This document shows, piece after piece, positions 504 to 46,748 of a DNA stretch of 64,000 bases. Where the stretch lies: the NCBI GenBank assembly GCA_963575745.1, contig CAUYUJ010000115.1, positions 186,001 to 250,000 on the forward strand. Reading direction: 5' to 3'. How positions within the stretch are numbered: the first letter of the stretch is position 1; each line of letters starts with the position of its first letter. This stretch comes from Prorocentrum cordatum. Lineage: Eukaryota. The notes beneath the pieces are model-generated. The model made no database searches, was not told the origin of the DNA, and was given only the letters and a program-made list of their open reading frames with translations. A program made the translations under genes and the position numbers.

Positions 504-1185
504 CTAGGGCTGACCTGTGGACTCCGTCCACGACATCTTTCTGTAATGGTTCTCGGAGGAACGGCGGAGATTTTGCCGAAGGCCAATAAGCACGGCGGCG
601 GCCGGGGCGGAGGCAGCCAAACTGAAGTCTCACGGGGATGTGCGTCAAAATTGAAGCCCATCTGAGGCGTCTCGTGAGCGCCTGGGGAAGGGCTCGGGAG
701 GCCCTCGGGGAAAGCCACCGGGAGCGCCGGGGAGTCTTGCCAGGATCTCTTCGGGCGCTTTTGGGCCATCTTGGAACCCTTTTGGCCCGTCTAGGACCTC
801 TCTTGGAAGTTTGAGGCACTAGGAGCCGTCTGGAGCAGTTCTTGGGGCGAAGTTGGGAGATCCTGAGAGTCAGTCAACGACTATGGGAAATCTTCGATTC
901 GGGCATCGTGGGGCCGTCAGTCATCCAGGTCCTCTTGGCCGTCTTGGAGGGCCTCCTGGCTCGCGTTGGGGCCGTCTTGGGCCATTCTGAGGCTCGCTTC
1001 GGGCTCTCTGGGACCACCTGGGCTTGGGCCGTCGTTGGACGTCCTGGAGCCTTCCAGCGGCCGTCCAGCGCCGTCCGGGGTCGCCCCAGGGGCACCGGGT
1101 CGCCCCTGGAGCGCCGGGAGCCGCCCCGGCCTGCTGCCGCTGCAGCGCCATCTCGCGCGCGCGGGCCCGAGCTTGGTGGTACAGG
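504..1185 (-). mobile_element. Helitron-like element E18
   Basis: Left end gtcA^CCTGTACCAC; right end GTGGAC-GGA-GTCCAC-aggtcagccCTAG. Confidence 0.75.
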
Positions 1186-1290
1186 TGACGTCGGGCAGCA
1201 GCTTCGCCTCCCGCATCTCGCCCAGCAGCGCCAGAGCACGCTGCCACTGCCCCCCCTTCTCGCACGCGCTGATCCCAGCGCTGTAGCTGA
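1186..1290 (-). CDS. PPR cassette, 1 motif (105 bp)
   Basis: SYSAGISACEKGGQWQRALALLGEMREAKLLPDV. Confidence 0.85.
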
Positions 1291-46200: not shown

Positions 46201-46748
46201 CTACTGGCCTGCCTTCGGGCCATCTTGGAGCTTTCTTGGGATCGTCTTGTGCCGTCCGGGGGTTCTTGAGAAAGTCTTGTAGCCGTCTTGGGGGCGTCTT
46301 GCGTCGTCTTGGGGGCATCTTGTGGCGCACAGTGGCGCGCCGCGCCGGGGCTGGCCTGACCAGTTCTGATATTTGTGATCCAATTCTCTTCTGGCACGCG
46401 GCGCCGCCAGCGTTGTAATATAGATGACGTTGGGCTCAATTATCGACCCCCACATCTCACTAAGCACCGACAGTGCTCGTTGCCATTGCCCGCTTTTGCT
46501 GCATACGCTGACTGTCGCAATGTAGTGGGCTGGTATGAGTTCAACACCCAAGTGGCATGCTTCGCGGAGCAGATGCAATGCTGCGCTCCACTGTTTTGTC
46601 CGACCAAACTTCTTGATTGACACTTCAACGGAAGCTCCGCCTTCTCGAGACCCTCGCCAAATGTCTAGCATCCAAAAATATATGGCATCGCGCTGGCAGA
46701 AGCCCAGTAAGGTTTGAGCCGCAACAGTTTGGAATGCTCCTTCTTCTC
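1186..46748 (-). CDS. Multi-exon PPR protein gene (putative; 2 divergent plus 13 homogeneous P-type motifs), ends not defined
   Basis: 11 co-oriented minus-strand segments encode SY(N/S)AGISACEKGEQWQRALALLSEMREAKLEP(D/N)V-type 35-aa motifs without stops or indels. Joining them into one transcript is inference. Confidence 0.65.
1291..3290 (-). mobile_element. Helitron-like element E17
   Basis: Left end G^TATGCACTACAAC (degenerate); right end CCGTGG-GCACA-CCACGG...CCAG^Tcagctac. Confidence 0.65.
3291..3395 (-). CDS. PPR cassette, 1 motif (105 bp)
   Basis: CYNAGISACEKGEQWQRALALLSEMRKVKLEPDV. Confidence 0.85.
3468..4760. repeat. Tandem array with 8 palindromic AAGCAAGTGG-N7-CCACTTGC motifs
   Basis: Copies at ~3468, 3650, 3829, 4008, 4156, 4336, 4484, 4674; related copies at 13881-14215. 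Confidence 0.85.
4788..6020 (+). pseudogene. Decayed coding fragment with RanBP2-type zinc finger and coiled coil
   Basis: WRCLRPSCRHANFGFRAECQKC (5144-5209) fits W-x-C-x4-C-x3-N-x6-C-x2-C; E/K-rich helix interrupted by TAG at 5399-5401; frameshifts; boundaries approximate. Confidence 0.7.
7113..7427 (-). CDS. PPR cassette, 3 motifs (315 bp)
   Basis: SYSAGISACEKGGPWQWALSLLRDMSEAKLKSDVIAYNAGISACGKGEQWQQALALLNEIFAAKLEPDVVSCSAGISACEKGEQWQQALALFSNIRDAKLEANV. Confidence 0.9.
8309..8352 (+). other. Tandem dinoflagellate spliced-leader (DinoSL) copies
   Basis: GCCGTAGCCATTTTGGCTCAAG (exact DCCGTAGCCATTTTGGCTCAAG) followed by TCCGTAGCCGTTTTGGCTCAGG (2 mismatches). Confidence 0.95.
8901..9040. repeat. 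(CTG)n microsatellite
   Basis: Direct reading. Confidence 0.95.
10194..10227 (-). pseudogene. Partial PPR motif (C-terminal third)
   Basis: EMWEAKLRSNV, following a (GAG)n tract and followed by another A^TCTGTAC left end. Confidence 0.65.
10338..10442 (-). CDS. PPR cassette, 1 motif (105 bp)
   Basis: TYSAGISACQKGDQWLRALALLRDMWEAKLKPNV. Confidence 0.85.
10443..12669 (-). mobile_element. Helitron-like element E14
   Basis: Left end TCTGTACTGC; right end CGTGG-ATTCC-CCACG...CTGG^Tcacctac. Confidence 0.7.
10698..11220. repeat. (GAAGA)n microsatellite
   Basis: Direct reading. Confidence 0.95.
12670..13686 (-). mobile_element. Helitron-like element E13
   Basis: Left end gtcA^TCTGTACTACAA; right end CCGTGGA-TGT-TCCACGG-gttgacaCGAG. 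Confidence 0.75.
13687..13791 (-). CDS. PPR cassette, 1 motif (105 bp)
   Basis: SYNAGISACEKGEQWQRALGLLRDMWEAKLTPDV. Confidence 0.85.
13809..16065 (-). mobile_element. Helitron-like element E12
   Basis: Left end A^GGTATATCAG (variant); right end CAAG; right ~500 bp homologous to the right part of E16 (from 3396); hairpin degraded. Confidence 0.55.
16066..16170 (-). CDS. PPR cassette, 1 motif (105 bp)
   Basis: SYNAGISACEKGKQWQWALALLSGLRSEKLEPDA. Confidence 0.85.
16171..18126 (-). mobile_element. Helitron-like element E11
   Basis: Left end TTTCTCCTACAATGCCGGG; right end CGTGGAC-GGA-GTCCACG-ggtcagccTTAG^Tcagctac. Confidence 0.75.
18127..18892 (-). mobile_element. Helitron-like element E10
   Basis: Left end TCTATATTATC; right end ggtcagtcCTAG with the hairpin deleted; subterminus homologous to that of E9. 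Confidence 0.65.
18893..20220 (-). mobile_element. Helitron-like element E9 (left end lost)
   Basis: Right end TGGAC-GTA-GTCCA...GTAG joined to the next TCTATATTA; no TC left end. Confidence 0.55.
19063..19592. repeat. (GTT/GGT)n followed by (CCCACCCGCGA)n
   Basis: Direct reading. Confidence 0.9.
20221..20335 (-). CDS. PPR cassette, 1 motif plus 10 nt of the next motif
   Basis: SYTAGISACEKCEQWLRALALLSEMSEAGLEPSVISY, then an abrupt break. Confidence 0.8.
21190..21288. mobile_element. Foldback MITE-like repeat (CTTCTTAGAAG family)
   Basis: Paired CTTCTTAGAAG / CTTCTAAGAAG arms; other copies at ~56988-57132, ~63061-63209 and a half copy at ~62817-62892. Confidence 0.65.
21794..22122. repeat. 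(GAAGA)n microsatellite
   Basis: Direct reading. Confidence 0.95.
22645..23044. repeat. (GAG)n tract
   Basis: Direct reading; similar tracts at ~29164-29245, 32607-32770, 36310-37036, 61760-61885. Confidence 0.9.
23686..24031. repeat. (CCCGGGTG)n then (TATAGCCC)n octamer arrays
   Basis: Direct reading; abuts the 3' end of the LINE. Confidence 0.9.
24048..28059 (-). pseudogene. LINE ORF2 (endonuclease-RT-RNase H), disrupted
   Basis: Motifs recovered by manual translation across frames; in-frame TGA codons just upstream of FFDD. Confidence 0.85.
28060..29066 (-). pseudogene. LINE ORF1-like: RanBP2-like zinc finger plus coiled coil
   Basis: MAPHTQSRHGWTCTACKSKNGAGYDFCWKCWG followed by K/E/L-rich helices; frameshifted. 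Confidence 0.7.
30121..30225 (-). CDS. PPR cassette, 1 motif (105 bp)
   Basis: SYNAGVSACGKGEQWQRALALLREMREATLEPDV. Confidence 0.85.
30395..34286 (-). mobile_element. Helitron-like element E7
   Basis: Left end A^GGTGTACCAC (variant); right end hairpin CCCGTG...CACGGG (30402-30422) then ACAG; terminal ~130 bp homologous to 1291-1425. Confidence 0.6.
31053..32105. repeat. ~100-120-bp minisatellite, about 10 units
   Basis: Recurring cccagcagccctcgaaagtggcgacagcttcgcagatcgcagccccccagggatg. Confidence 0.9.
34287..34496 (-). CDS. PPR cassette, 2 motifs (210 bp)
   Basis: SYSAGISACEKGEQWQGALALLSDMREAGPEPDVISYSALISACEKGEQWHRALALLGEVREAKLEPNL. Confidence 0.85.
34497..37523 (-). mobile_element. Helitron-like element E6
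   Basis: Left end TCTCTCCTACATGG; right end CGTGGAC-GAA-GTCCACG-ggttcgccCTAT. Confidence 0.75.
35796..36292. repeat. 73-bp tandem repeat x7
   Basis: cttcgtgctcttcga at 35809, 35882, 35955, 36027, 36100, 36173, 36246. Confidence 0.95.
37524..39287 (-). mobile_element. Helitron-like element E5
   Basis: Left end gtcA^TCTGTACTAC; right end CGTGGAT-GCA-ATCCACG-agttcacaCTAG. Confidence 0.8.
39288..39392 (-). CDS. PPR cassette, 1 motif (105 bp)
   Basis: SYNAGISACGKGEQWQRALALLSEVCEAKMEPDV; flanked by CTAG| and |TCTGTACTAC. Confidence 0.85.
39393..41174 (-). mobile_element. Helitron-like element E4
   Basis: Left end TCTCTACTACATTGCAGG; right end GTGGAC-GGA-GTCCAC...gccCTAG^Tcagctac. Confidence 0.8.
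39885..40995. repeat. 375-bp tandem triplication
   Basis: AT-rich landmark aaaaca..gaaaaacaca.tagaaatcgacgatttctg at 40111, 40486, 40861. Confidence 0.9.
41175..43467 (-). mobile_element. Helitron-like element E3
   Basis: Left end TCTCTACTACATTGCAGG; right end CGTGGAC-GGA-GTCCACG-ggtcagccCTAG; truncated internal left-end copy near 42617-42650. Confidence 0.8.
43468..45673 (-). mobile_element. Helitron-like element E2 (extra internal terminus at 43784-43812)
   Basis: Left end TCTCTCCTGCATGG; right end CGTGGAT-GGA-GTCCACG-ggtcagccCTAG. Confidence 0.75.
45674..46424 (-). mobile_element. Non-autonomous Helitron-like element E1
   Basis: Left end A^TCTATATTACAACGCTGG; right end hairpin CGTGGGC-GAA-GTCCACG then CGAG. 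Confidence 0.7.
46425..46748 (-). CDS. Divergent upstream PPR exon (2 motifs)
   Basis: Translates to ...ASVEVSIKKFGRTKQWSAALHLLREACHLGVELIP AHYIATVSVCSKSGQWQRALSVLSEMWGSIIEPNV. Non-repetitive and lower GC than its surroundings. Candidate acceptor ctcacAG at 46749-46750, so the 5' boundary is tentative. Confidence 0.8.

What the first reader, a model, noticed from the sequence alone, without database searches (positions are those of the whole stretch)
1181..46424. Splice donor is present at exon-adjacent left ends but absent at internal ones (Helitrons acting as introns)
Seen: of 11 left ends touching PPR coding sequence, 9 have GT or GC at positions +4/+5 (39287, 34286, 30120, 13686, 10337, 10193, 7112, 3290, 1185). 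One has AG|GT (16065) and one has neither (46424, TCTAT). Of 9 left ends at element-element junctions only one has GT (12669); the rest are TCTCT, TCTAT, TTTCT or TCTTC. The terminal CTAG supplies an AG. Splicing atcT|GT...AG|TCagc stays in frame and adds one codon (V-I-F-S-Y). Established: dinoflagellates commonly use GC and GA donors as well as GT, and TE-derived introners are known in the group. Caveat: three cassettes (34496, 30225, 10442) lack the immediately adjacent AG.
Basis: partly seen in the sequence, partly recalled or inferred. Interest (0 to 1): 0.78.

Follow-up and report, generated by a model that had tools for sequence, protein, structure and literature searches.

The report
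Helitron-like introns between PPR repeats
In this dinoflagellate DNA, rolling-circle-type jumping elements sit exactly between the 35-residue repeats of a PPR gene and probably serve as its introns, but the reported link between a splice signal and position next to an exon follows element subfamily, so it does not yet show selection for splicing.

Summary
The counts are right. G[T/C] stands at +4/+5 in 9 of 11 left ends that touch a PPR cassette and in 1 of 9 that follow another element (raw Fisher p = 0.0055). The predicted in-frame product (…DVIFSY…) occurs at 23 repeat junctions of published Prorocentrum cordatum protein models and at none in unspliced environmental ORFs, so the annotation does treat these elements as introns at that site.

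Selection for a donor is not shown:
- The contrast coincides with two left-end subfamilies that also differ at positions unrelated to splicing.
- The one internal GT element belongs to the same family as an exon-adjacent one.
- Once relatedness is allowed for, at most 4 independent contrasts remain.
- In environmental relatives only 6 of 24 cassette-adjacent left ends carry G at +4.
- In-phase GT dinucleotides also occur at +28 and +37.
- This organism accepts GT, GC and GA donors, so the dinucleotide carries little information.

No RNA run was listed for this stretch, so splicing itself is untested. The cassettes look constrained: 14 of 14 are open and free of indels. Helitron-derived introners are already published, including one family in the dinoflagellate Polarella. 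This scan has noted the same PPR/Helitron system on other pieces of this genome.

The parts
46425..46529 (-). PPR cassette (divergent, open frame)
39288..39392 (-). PPR cassette
34287..34496 (-). two tandem PPR cassettes; their direct junction GTCA|TCAGC serves as a paralogous empty site
30121..30225 (-). PPR cassette; no Helitron-type 3' end and no AG upstream
20231..20335 (-). PPR cassette, followed at 20230 by a truncated cassette start (TCAGC)
16066..16170 (-). PPR cassette
13687..13791 (-). PPR cassette
10338..10442 (-). PPR cassette
10194..10337 (-). decayed cassette: left-end-like start, (GGA)n tract, then a 40-nt cassette tail
7113..7427 (-). three tandem PPR cassettes (two more empty-site junctions)
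3291..3395 (-). PPR cassette
1186..1290 (-). PPR cassette
46380..46424 (-). exon-adjacent left end, TCTAT (no G at +4)
39243..39287 (-). exon-adjacent left end, TCTGT; same element family as internal 12669
34242..34286 (-). exon-adjacent left end, GGTGT (CAG|GT across the boundary); in-phase GAG|GTACG at +37
30076..30120 (-). exon-adjacent left end, TCTGC
16021..16065 (-). exon-adjacent left end, GGTAT (CAG|GT across the boundary, out of phase with AG|TC)
13642..13686 (-). exon-adjacent left end, TCTGT, followed by (GGA)n
10149..10193 (-). left end after the partial cassette tail, TCTGT, internally deleted
7068..7112 (-). exon-adjacent left end, TCTGT
3246..3290 (-). exon-adjacent left end, TATGC; in-phase GAG|GTACG at +37; element collinear with the one at 34286
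1141..1185 (-). exon-adjacent left end, CCTGT
45629..45713 (-). internal junction: hairpin plus CGAG, then left end TCTCT
43423..43507 (-). internal junction: hairpin plus CTAG, then left end TCTCT
41130..41214 (-). internal junction: hairpin plus CTAG, then left end TCTCT
37479..37563 (-). internal junction: hairpin with compensatory change (GTGGAT/ATCCAC) plus CTAG, then left end TCTCT
21425..21509 (-). internal junction: hairpin ...TCGTCA, then left end TCTCT
18848..18932 (-). internal junction: hairpin plus GTAG, then left end TCTAT
18082..18166 (-). internal junction: CTAG (hairpin lost), then left end TTTCT
12625..12709 (-). internal junction: hairpin plus CGAG, then left end TCTGT (the only internal GT)
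459..543 (-). internal junction: hairpin plus CTAG, then left end TCTTC
39393..39432 (-). Helitron-type 3' end (hairpin, CTAG) directly before a cassette
34497..34536 (-). 3' end with hairpin ending CTAT (no AG) before a cassette
20336..20375 (-). 3' end (hairpin, CTAG) before a cassette
16171..16210 (-). 3' end (hairpin, TTAG) before a cassette
10443..10482 (-). 3' end (weaker hairpin, CTGG, no AG) before a cassette
7428..7467 (-). 3' end (degenerate hairpin, CTAG) before the triple cassette
1291..1330 (-). 3' end (hairpin GTGG/CCAC, CCAG) before a cassette

Best explanation
The minus strand of 1-46.5 kb is a PPR repeat array of the Prorocentrum cordatum type.

Shown from sequence. Non-autonomous, Helitron-like elements have inserted, singly or in head-to-tail stacks, exactly at the A|TC boundary between 105-nt repeat cassettes. 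They have a 5' end TCT(G/C)TACTAC..., a 7-bp subterminal hairpin, and a 3' terminus CTAG or a near variant. There is no target duplication.

Inferred. The cassettes are still constrained coding units, and the element stacks between them are removed from the transcript as introns. The published annotation of paralogous loci does this at ATCT|G(T/C)...AG|TCAGC, which adds one codon (D-V-I-F-S-Y).

My reading of the asymmetry. The GT asymmetry is real in this window, but it is a subfamily signature. Left ends next to cassettes belong to a diverged subfamily B (TCTGTAC...CTGG...[T/G]G-GCGCGTGCG). Left ends behind another element belong to subfamily A (TCTCTAC...C[A/C]GG...). By itself the contrast therefore does not show that selection keeps a donor at the exon-proximal end.
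For: Structure:
- The hairpin-plus-terminus motif is found repeatedly on the minus strand.
- The hairpin folds at a fixed distance from the end in 8 of 12 3' flanks tested, with a compensatory GTGGAT/ATCCAC variant.
- Three tandem cassette junctions read GTCA|TCAGC or close variants and act as empty sites.
- Left ends are homologous to cassette starts.

Constraint on the cassettes:
- 14 of 14 cassettes are 105 nt, open and without indels.
- Simulated probability of no stop codon in any of them is 0.0003.
- Mean pN/pS is 0.52.
- The first 43 nt of the cassettes are 85% identical pairwise, against 59% for the homologous exon-adjacent left ends.

Annotation:
- The best protein matches are NCBI P. 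cordatum PPR models.
- 24 of 197 proteins, plus 4 of the 82 proteins (P0198, P0205, P0212, P0213), carry the I-F-S-Y junction.
- An anchored count gives 23 such junctions in NCBI and other models, and 0 in ENA or EukProt ORFs beside 27 tandem junctions there.
- No contiguous GTCATCTTCAGCTAC occurs in the window.
- P. cordatum introns average 4709 bp and use GT 24.7%, GC 51.4% and GA 23.8% as donors (PMC10666404, passages).

Subfamily confounding:
- Alignment columns away from the donor separate the same two groups.
- Internal 12669 (TCTGT) is collinear with exon-adjacent 39287 at 70-79% identity.
- On a tree built without columns 1-5, the 'internal' label needs 4 changes, a value as low in only 2 of 500 shuffles. 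Only 1 (starred branches) or 4 (all branches) independent pairs exist.
Against: - No RNA evidence exists: 0 runs were listed, so splicing rests on gene models. Those models were built partly ab initio with only GT/GC/GA donors allowed. Many read cassettes in wrong frames, so they are not reliable.
- The acceptor here is AG|T, whereas 79.7% of annotated P. cordatum acceptors are AGG.
- Three of the ten stretches between successive cassette groups lack the AG and two lack the +4/+5 donor. The 14 cassettes therefore cannot all join by this one rule.
- Four of 12 upstream flanks have no hairpin.
- No RepHel-type protein is present in the window (0 of 17 ORFs).
- Grouped by element body family, the contrast is still 7 of 9 versus 1 of 6 (p = 0.041). 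Some enrichment beyond simple copy duplication is therefore not excluded.
- Two unrelated left ends changed TC to GG, creating CAG|GT, which looks like donor improvement.
Confidence: 0.5

Rival explanations
1. Any element that lands directly behind a cassette interrupts the coding sequence and survives only if it brings a donor (T|GT or T|GC at +4/+5). Elements that land inside an existing intron are free of this constraint. The asymmetry is then the footprint of selection for splicing.
For: - 9 of 11 versus 1 of 9, p = 0.0055.
- Still 7 of 9 versus 1 of 6 when copies are grouped by element body family (p = 0.041).
- The exon-adjacent elements have at least five unrelated bodies.
- Left ends 34286 and 16065 carry TC to GG changes that create CAG|GT.
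- P. cordatum models use this donor at 23 junctions.
- The cassettes look constrained.
Against: - The contrast is completely confounded with subfamily. No subfamily-A left end is exon-adjacent, and the one internal subfamily-B copy keeps its GT.
- Only 1 to 4 independent contrasts remain.
- G at +4 (8 of 10) is no better conserved than neighbouring terminal positions such as +3 (10 of 10), +6, +9 and +10 (9 of 10 each).
- In unspliced environmental ORFs with intact cassettes, only 6 of 24 adjacent left ends have the Cys codon TGY (G at +4). The rest are Ser 7, Tyr 6, Phe 3, Leu 1 and Gln 1 (hand-curated).
- In-phase GT also occurs at +28 in 4 of the 12 left ends checked and at +37 in 2.
- GT, GC and GA together fill about 20% of dinucleotides.
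Confidence: 0.25
2. The cassettes are not exons of a working gene. They are PPR fragments that persist and multiply together with the elements, by co-duplication or by capture at an element end. The gene models that join them are products of ab initio prediction in GC-rich, stop-poor DNA. The GT then has no function.
For: - Many P. cordatum models contain cassettes read in the two wrong frames (QLQRWDQRVREG..., TTLGSARARR...).
- The models are short and numerous.
- Nine of the 11 cassette groups are single cassettes.
- Three acceptors and two donors are missing.
- Environmental ORFs and ORFs carried under a EukProt label read straight from the element 3' end through the cassettes into the next left end.
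Against: - 14 of 14 cassettes are open with no indel, P = 0.0003 under random placement of the observed substitutions.
- pN/pS is 0.52.
- The cassettes are much better conserved than the homologous left ends beside them, 85% versus 59%, and than collinear element bodies, 87% versus 66-75% for 3290 and 34286.
Confidence: 0.2
3. The elements are removed from the RNA, but not at T|GT. They are removed either exactly at the insertion boundaries (mRNA reads ...DVISY..., a non-canonical TC...AG intron) or from another in-phase donor such as GAG|GTACG at +37.
For: - In-phase GAG|GTACG lies at +37 of left ends 3290 and 34286.
- One P. cordatum model (P0231) joins ...VICTTILGEARAR to ISYNAG, which is a +37-type donor.
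- More than 60% of introns in Amoebophrya strains A25 and A120 are non-canonical (PMC11453091, passages).
- Earlier notes of this scan report exact removal of transposon-derived inserts without splice signals elsewhere in this genome (e1-7695824 and e1-7695829; not checked by me).
Against: - Nothing here shows such junctions.
- Gene models use +4 at 23 junctions and a +37-type donor once.
- An exact-excision product cannot be told from genomic tandem cassettes at the protein level.
Confidence: 0.15

Closest known systems
Helitron-derived introner family 15 of Polarella glacialis (Gozashti et al. 2025, PNAS, PMC12130899; supplementary file sd07.xlsx row 714, read)
   Same: It is in a dinoflagellate. 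[quoted passage not shown] It is annotated as introns with mixed donors (gt 28, gc 15, non-canonical 6) and AG acceptors. The element carries the 3' splice site.
   Different: That family is listed as 'co-opt 5' carry 3''. Here the proposed donor lies inside the element (+4/+5), so both sites would be carried. Here the elements sit at one fixed position of one repeat type (PPR), form stacks, and have a 5' end homologous to the target. Splicing is not shown by RNA here.
Fungal Helitron introners (Suillus subalutaceus fam5/fam6, Nemania serpens fam1; same supplementary table rows 535, 537, 318; main-text passage)
   Same: Insertions are enriched between A and T, there are no TSDs, and Suillus fam5/6 is listed as 'carry both' splice sites.
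   Different: They have few copies (4 to 20), GT-AG only, lie in unrelated genes, and do not target a repeat.
Canonical non-autonomous Helitrons with head-to-tail arrays (general knowledge, recalled; cited in PMC12130899 as reference 31)
   Same: 5' TC, 3' CTRR, a hairpin about 12 nt before the 3' end, insertion between A and T without duplication, and variable bodies between conserved ends.
   Different: No RepHel partner was seen here. The termini are often degenerate (CCAG, CGAG, TTAG). The 5' end mimics the target.
Non-canonical introner elements of Amoebophrya A25/A120 (Farhat et al. 2021, known to me only through passages of PMC11453091 and PMC10666404)
   Same: Repeated, transposon-like introns in a dinoflagellate lineage whose splice boundaries need not be GT-AG.
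   Different: Those elements have short inverted and direct repeats at their ends, not Helitron-type ends.

Membership tests
Helitron (canonical, non-autonomous) | 5' end begins with TC | tested here: met
   15 of 20 left ends start TC. The exceptions are GG (34286, 16065), TA (3290), CC (1185) and TT (18126).
Helitron (canonical, non-autonomous) | 3' end CTRR | tested here: inconclusive
   9 of 20 termini are CTAG or CTGG. The others are near variants (CCAG x3, CGAG x2, TTAG, GTAG, GCAG, CTAT) or unrelated (ATTC, GTCA).
Helitron (canonical, non-autonomous) | Short hairpin about 10-12 nt upstream of the 3' end | tested here: met
   A 5-7-bp stem ending 12 nt before the terminus is present in 8 of 12 3' flanks folded. 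One copy has a compensatory C-G to T-A change.
Helitron (canonical, non-autonomous) | Insertion between A and T without target-site duplication | tested here: met
   Three tandem cassette junctions (GTCA|TCAGC, GTGA|TTGC, GTCG|TCAGC) are paralogous empty sites, and the elements lie exactly at that point. No orthologous empty site was available.
Helitron (canonical, non-autonomous) | An autonomous partner encoding a Rep/helicase protein | tested here: not met
   0 of 17 long ORFs of the window match a Helitron or PIF1 family in Pfam. The rest of the genome could not be searched.
Introner (transposon-derived spliceosomal intron) | Precise removal from mRNA | not testable with these tools
   No sequencing run was listed, so read laying could not be used. 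The only support is the I-F-S-Y junction in 23 places in predicted proteins.
Introner (transposon-derived spliceosomal intron) | Splice sites carried by the element or built at insertion | tested here: inconclusive
   G[T/C] at +4/+5 in 9 of 11 and AG at the end in 8 of 11 exon-adjacent cases. Both are also family features of the element ends: AG is present in 8 of 9 internal ends.
Introner (transposon-derived spliceosomal intron) | Many similar copies as introns of unrelated genes | tested here: not met
   In the window, and in the protein models seen, the elements are tied to one repeat type (PPR) only.
PPR (P-class, 35-residue repeats) | 35-residue helical repeat matching PPR profiles | tested here: met
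   The cassettes translate to ...SYNAGISACEKGEQWQRALALLSEMWEAKLEPDV. The homologues found carry PF01535, PF13041 and PF13812.

The most novel reading that the evidence does not exclude
A Helitron-like family that homes to the boundary of PPR repeats has become the intron set of these genes. It brings both splice sites with it (T|GT at +4/+5 and the terminal AG of CTAG), so each insertion costs the protein just one extra phenylalanine. Selection keeps the donor only on the exon-proximal element of each stack, while elements stacked behind it drift freely.
Probability: 0.25. Interest if true: 0.7.

Novelty: new variant of a known kind. Interest (0 to 1): 0.42.

Why it matters
If RNA confirms the junction, this would be a clear example of a rolling-circle transposon that carries both splice sites and settles at one fixed point of a coding repeat at the cost of a single codon. 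That would help explain how dinoflagellate genes acquired so many long introns. It would also give a natural experiment on what a minimal donor is in an organism that accepts GT, GC and GA. As it stands, the asymmetry alone does not show selection. Helitron-derived introners are already in print.

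Tried and rejected
- Whole genome.
- Predicted exon-exon junction as a degenerate DNA motif. There were 0 matches in metagenome contigs and 0 in viral contigs. The control motif for the tandem junction found only 2 loci in metagenome contigs. One of them (L001) is Prorocentrum-like and unspliced. That collection holds almost nothing of this organism, so the blank says nothing.
- A 30-nt 3'-end string gave 0 matches in viral contigs.
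- tblastn of the first 120 proteins against the window. None is a model of this locus; the best matches are 90-95% identical over 20-31 residues.
- Internal junctions in the protein set. Only cassette-following 3' ends were found (18 of 18), so the internal half of the table could not be enlarged.
- 'Age' idea. I considered that exon-proximal elements are simply the oldest in each stack. Bodies of both subfamilies are about equally diverged (68-80%), so I keep this only as a possibility.
- Literature. Searches for 'Prorocentrum' + 'Helitron' (1 paper, unrelated; listing only) and for 'pentatricopeptide' + 'dinoflagellate' + 'introner' (2 papers, neither on this) found no description of this system. 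'Prorocentrum' has 0 occurrences in the 12 of 14 supplementary files of PMC12130899 that were searched.

Full report
WHAT IS THERE

The window is GC-rich (0.52-0.67) and highly repetitive. Six-frame translation and direct reading show 14 PPR cassettes on the minus strand. Each is exactly 105 nt, from TCAGCTAC... to ...GACGTCA. They lie at 46529-46425, 39392-39288, 34496-34287 (two), 30225-30121, 20335-20231, 16170-16066, 13791-13687, 10442-10338, 7427-7113 (three), 3395-3291 and 1290-1186. A 40-nt cassette tail lies at 10233-10194.

The nearest proteins are 'unnamed protein product [Prorocentrum cordatum]' PPR models at 60-93% identity. None of the first 120 is a model of this very locus.

THE ELEMENTS

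Most cassettes are preceded by a conserved 3' end such as ...GATGTC-GTGGACGGAGTCCAC-GGGTCAGCC-CTAG.
- The hairpin folds at the same distance from the terminus in 8 of 12 flanks tested, and one copy carries a compensatory change.
- Four cassettes (46529, 30225, 13791, 3395) have no such hairpin upstream.
- What follows a cassette, or a 3' end, is a 'left end' TCT(G/C)TACTACA...GCG(C/T)GTGCGAG.
- Three tandem cassette junctions read GTCA|TCAGC or variants. The insert therefore lies exactly between A and T, starts with TC, ends with CTAG or a near variant, and makes no duplication. This is the anatomy of a non-autonomous Helitron.
- No Rep/helicase ORF is in the window (0 of 17 ORFs).
- The left ends are homologous to the cassette start. 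An HMM built from 12 left ends also hits the cassette starts, and in the alignment a left end equals 'TC' plus a diverged cassette start. Earlier notes of this scan say the same for other pieces of this genome (e1-7625270). I confirmed it here.

THE OBSERVATION

- G[T/C] at +4/+5 stands in 9 of 11 left ends that touch cassette sequence and in 1 of 9 that follow another element. Raw Fisher p = 0.0055.
- AG before the cassette stands in 8 of 11 cases.
- AG also ends 8 of 9 internal elements, so it is simply a feature of the element terminus.
- The 'left end' at 10337 continues through (GGA)n into a cassette tail, so it is a decayed cassette.

IS IT SPLICED?

I could not get RNA. No run was listed for the 10-kb stretch I asked about. 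The junction motif is absent from the two contig collections I could scan, and those collections hold almost nothing of this organism.

Indirect evidence comes from protein models.
- The predicted product ...P-D-V-I-F-S-Y... occurs in 24 of 197 proteins and in 4 of the 82 proteins. All carriers are NCBI P. cordatum models.
- With an anchored pattern I count 23 such junctions beside 131 ordinary tandem junctions in NCBI and other models. In ORFs from ENA contigs and EukProt-labelled contigs I count none beside 27 tandem junctions.
- The window holds no contiguous GTCATCTTCAGCTAC.
- I-L-S-Y variants fit the same donor position with C at +3.

The weight of this evidence is limited.
- The models were built by combining transcript alignments with several ab initio predictors that allow only GT, GC and GA donors (PMC10666404, methods passages).
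- Many of these PPR models read cassettes in the wrong frames.
- The acceptor would be AG|T, whereas 79.7% of annotated acceptors in this species are AGG.
- One model (P0231) uses a donor about 37 nt into the left end instead. Left ends 3290 and 34286 carry an in-phase GAG|GTACG there.

ARE THE CASSETTES REAL EXONS?

Evidence that they are:
- All 14 are open and free of indels. Placing the observed numbers of substitutions at random gives this outcome with probability 0.0003. This is a simple model, and its substitution spectrum was taken from the cassettes themselves.
- Mean pN/pS is 0.52.
- The first 43 nt of the cassettes are 85% identical pairwise, against 59% for the homologous exon-adjacent left ends.
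- Cassettes 3290 and 34286 are 87% identical, while the collinear elements behind them are 66-75% identical.

This favours constraint on the cassettes, and hence some way of removing the elements from the message. Concerted evolution among the many cassettes of the genome is not excluded.

Evidence against a single simple gene: of the ten stretches between successive cassette groups, three lack the AG and two lack the +4/+5 donor.

DOES THE ASYMMETRY SHOW SELECTION FOR A DONOR?

I think not yet, for six reasons.
1. The contrast coincides with two left-end subfamilies that differ elsewhere too. Exon-adjacent copies mostly read ...CTG-G... and [T/G]G before GCGCGTGCG. Internal copies read ...C[A/C]G-G... 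and [A/C]G. No subfamily-A copy is exon-adjacent in the window.
2. The single internal GT copy (12669) has the subfamily-B characters, and its body is collinear with exon-adjacent 39287 at 70-79%. A stratified test therefore has no within-stratum contrast.
3. On a tree built without columns 1-5, the 'internal' label is clustered (4 changes; as low in 2 of 500 shuffles). Only 1 independent pair on supported branches, or 4 on all branches, is available, which cannot reach significance. The tree itself is weak (40 columns, 12 of 19 branches unresolved).
4. G at +4 (8 of 10 aligned exon-adjacent rows) is no better kept than neighbouring terminal positions such as +3, +6, +9 and +10.
5. In unspliced ORFs from environmental contigs and EukProt-labelled contigs, the codon after V-I reports positions +3 to +5. 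It is Cys (TGY) in 6 of 24 left-end read-throughs, Ser in 7, Tyr in 6, Phe in 3, Leu in 1 and Gln in 1 (I removed six variant tandem cassettes by hand). Donor-less left ends next to intact cassettes are therefore common in relatives. These contigs may come from other Prorocentrum species. In the P. cordatum models the share with G at +4 is higher: 23 spliced plus 4 Cys read-throughs, against about 9 clear non-G read-throughs. That sample is biased by the gene predictor.
6. The signal itself is cheap. GT, GC and GA together fill about 20% of dinucleotides. In-phase GT recurs at +28 inside the conserved GCGCGTGCG motif in 4 of the 12 left ends checked, and at +37 in 2.

- Grouped by element body, the contrast is 7 of 9 versus 1 of 6 (p = 0.041).
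- Two unrelated left ends changed TC to GG, making CAG|GT.

COMPARISON WITH WHAT IS KNOWN

Helitron-derived introners are in print. Gozashti et al. 2025 (PMC12130899; abstract, passages and supplementary table read) classify about 1% of confidently typed introner families as Helitrons.
- It also lists fungal families in Suillus and Nemania.
- Prorocentrum does not occur in the 12 of 14 supplementary files that were searched.

What differs here:
- The elements sit at one fixed site of a PPR repeat.
- The left end mimics the target.
- The elements form stacks.
- Both splice sites would be carried by the element, at the cost of one codon.

This scan has already noted the PPR/Helitron system on other pieces of this genome (e1-7625268, e1-7625270). 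It has also noted exact removal of other transposon-derived inserts without splice signals (e1-7695824, e1-7695829; not checked by me), which keeps a non-canonical removal of these elements open.

VERDICT

The reading 'Helitron-like elements act as introns, spliced at T|GT...AG|TC' is plausible and matches the published models, but it is not shown by RNA. The reading 'the donor is kept by selection only at exon-adjacent ends' is not supported beyond a subfamily effect. This is a new variant of a known kind, of moderate interest.

Noticed in passing
window 34242-34286 and 3246-3290 (minus strand): Both left ends of one element family carry a canonical-looking, in-phase donor GAG|GTACG at +37. 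Using it would add 12 codons (VCTTTLVAARAR-type) in place of one. One P. cordatum model (P0231) shows such a junction.
   Followed up: partly
window 34286 and 16065 (minus strand): Two unrelated left ends begin GG in place of TC, giving CAG|GT across the cassette boundary. This donor is out of phase with AG|TCAGC but in phase with the AG inside TCAG|CTAC, which would give a 34-residue repeat.
   Followed up: partly
window 39393-39420, 34497-34524, 16171-16198, 7428-7455, 20336-20363 (minus strand): The element 3' end is open in the cassette frame (…VHGSALVSY…). Environmental ORFs start inside the upstream element and read into the cassettes (P0109, P0148, P0153, P0162, P0167).
   Followed up: partly
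window 10194-10337 and 13540-13686: (GGA)n/(TCC)n microsatellites directly follow two left ends. At 10337 the tract replaces the middle of a cassette whose tail is still present.
   Followed up: partly
window 13792-13825 (minus strand): A 17-nt stub of a subfamily-A left end (TCTCTACTATGTTGCAG) lies directly in front of cassette 13791. It supplies the AG there, and no hairpin is present upstream.
   Followed up: no
throughout 1-45000, e.g. 17560-17830, 39750-40860, 42800-43140, 44400-44760: The element bodies are largely made of a 21-nt minisatellite (GGGCCGTCTTGGGGCCCTCTT-like), which causes most of the cross-matches between elements.
   Followed up: no
window 4441-6603 (+ strand): A 720-residue open frame rich in E/K/Q with a Cys-rich stretch (…WRCLRPSCRHANFGFRAECQKC…) has no Pfam match. 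Its meaning is unknown.
   Followed up: partly
window 23807-24050; 48900-49750 and 53700-54040; 50600-52750: Tandem arrays of an 8-nt unit (CCTATAGC), of 12-nt units, and of a 12-nt GATAGTGAGATC-type unit mixed with (GAT)n. The region beyond 46.6 kb has lower GC and no PPR cassettes.
   Followed up: no
L001 760-1259: An environmental 1259-nt contig carries the same 3' end (hairpin, CTAG) followed by three tandem cassettes. A 48-nt spacer then precedes a fourth cassette. The system therefore exists outside the reference assembly.
   Followed up: partly
proteins P0199, P0212, P0241, P0250 and others: Many P. cordatum models show a cassette followed by a cassette shifted by +2 (…VISATALGSARARR…). 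This fits 'TC + cassette start' junctions and the proposed origin of the left end.
   Followed up: no
proteins P0239, P0242, P0267, P0269-P0271, P0276: Prorocentrum-type cassettes and left-end read-throughs are filed in EukProt under a Pyramimonas sp. label, which suggests contamination of that data set.
   Followed up: no
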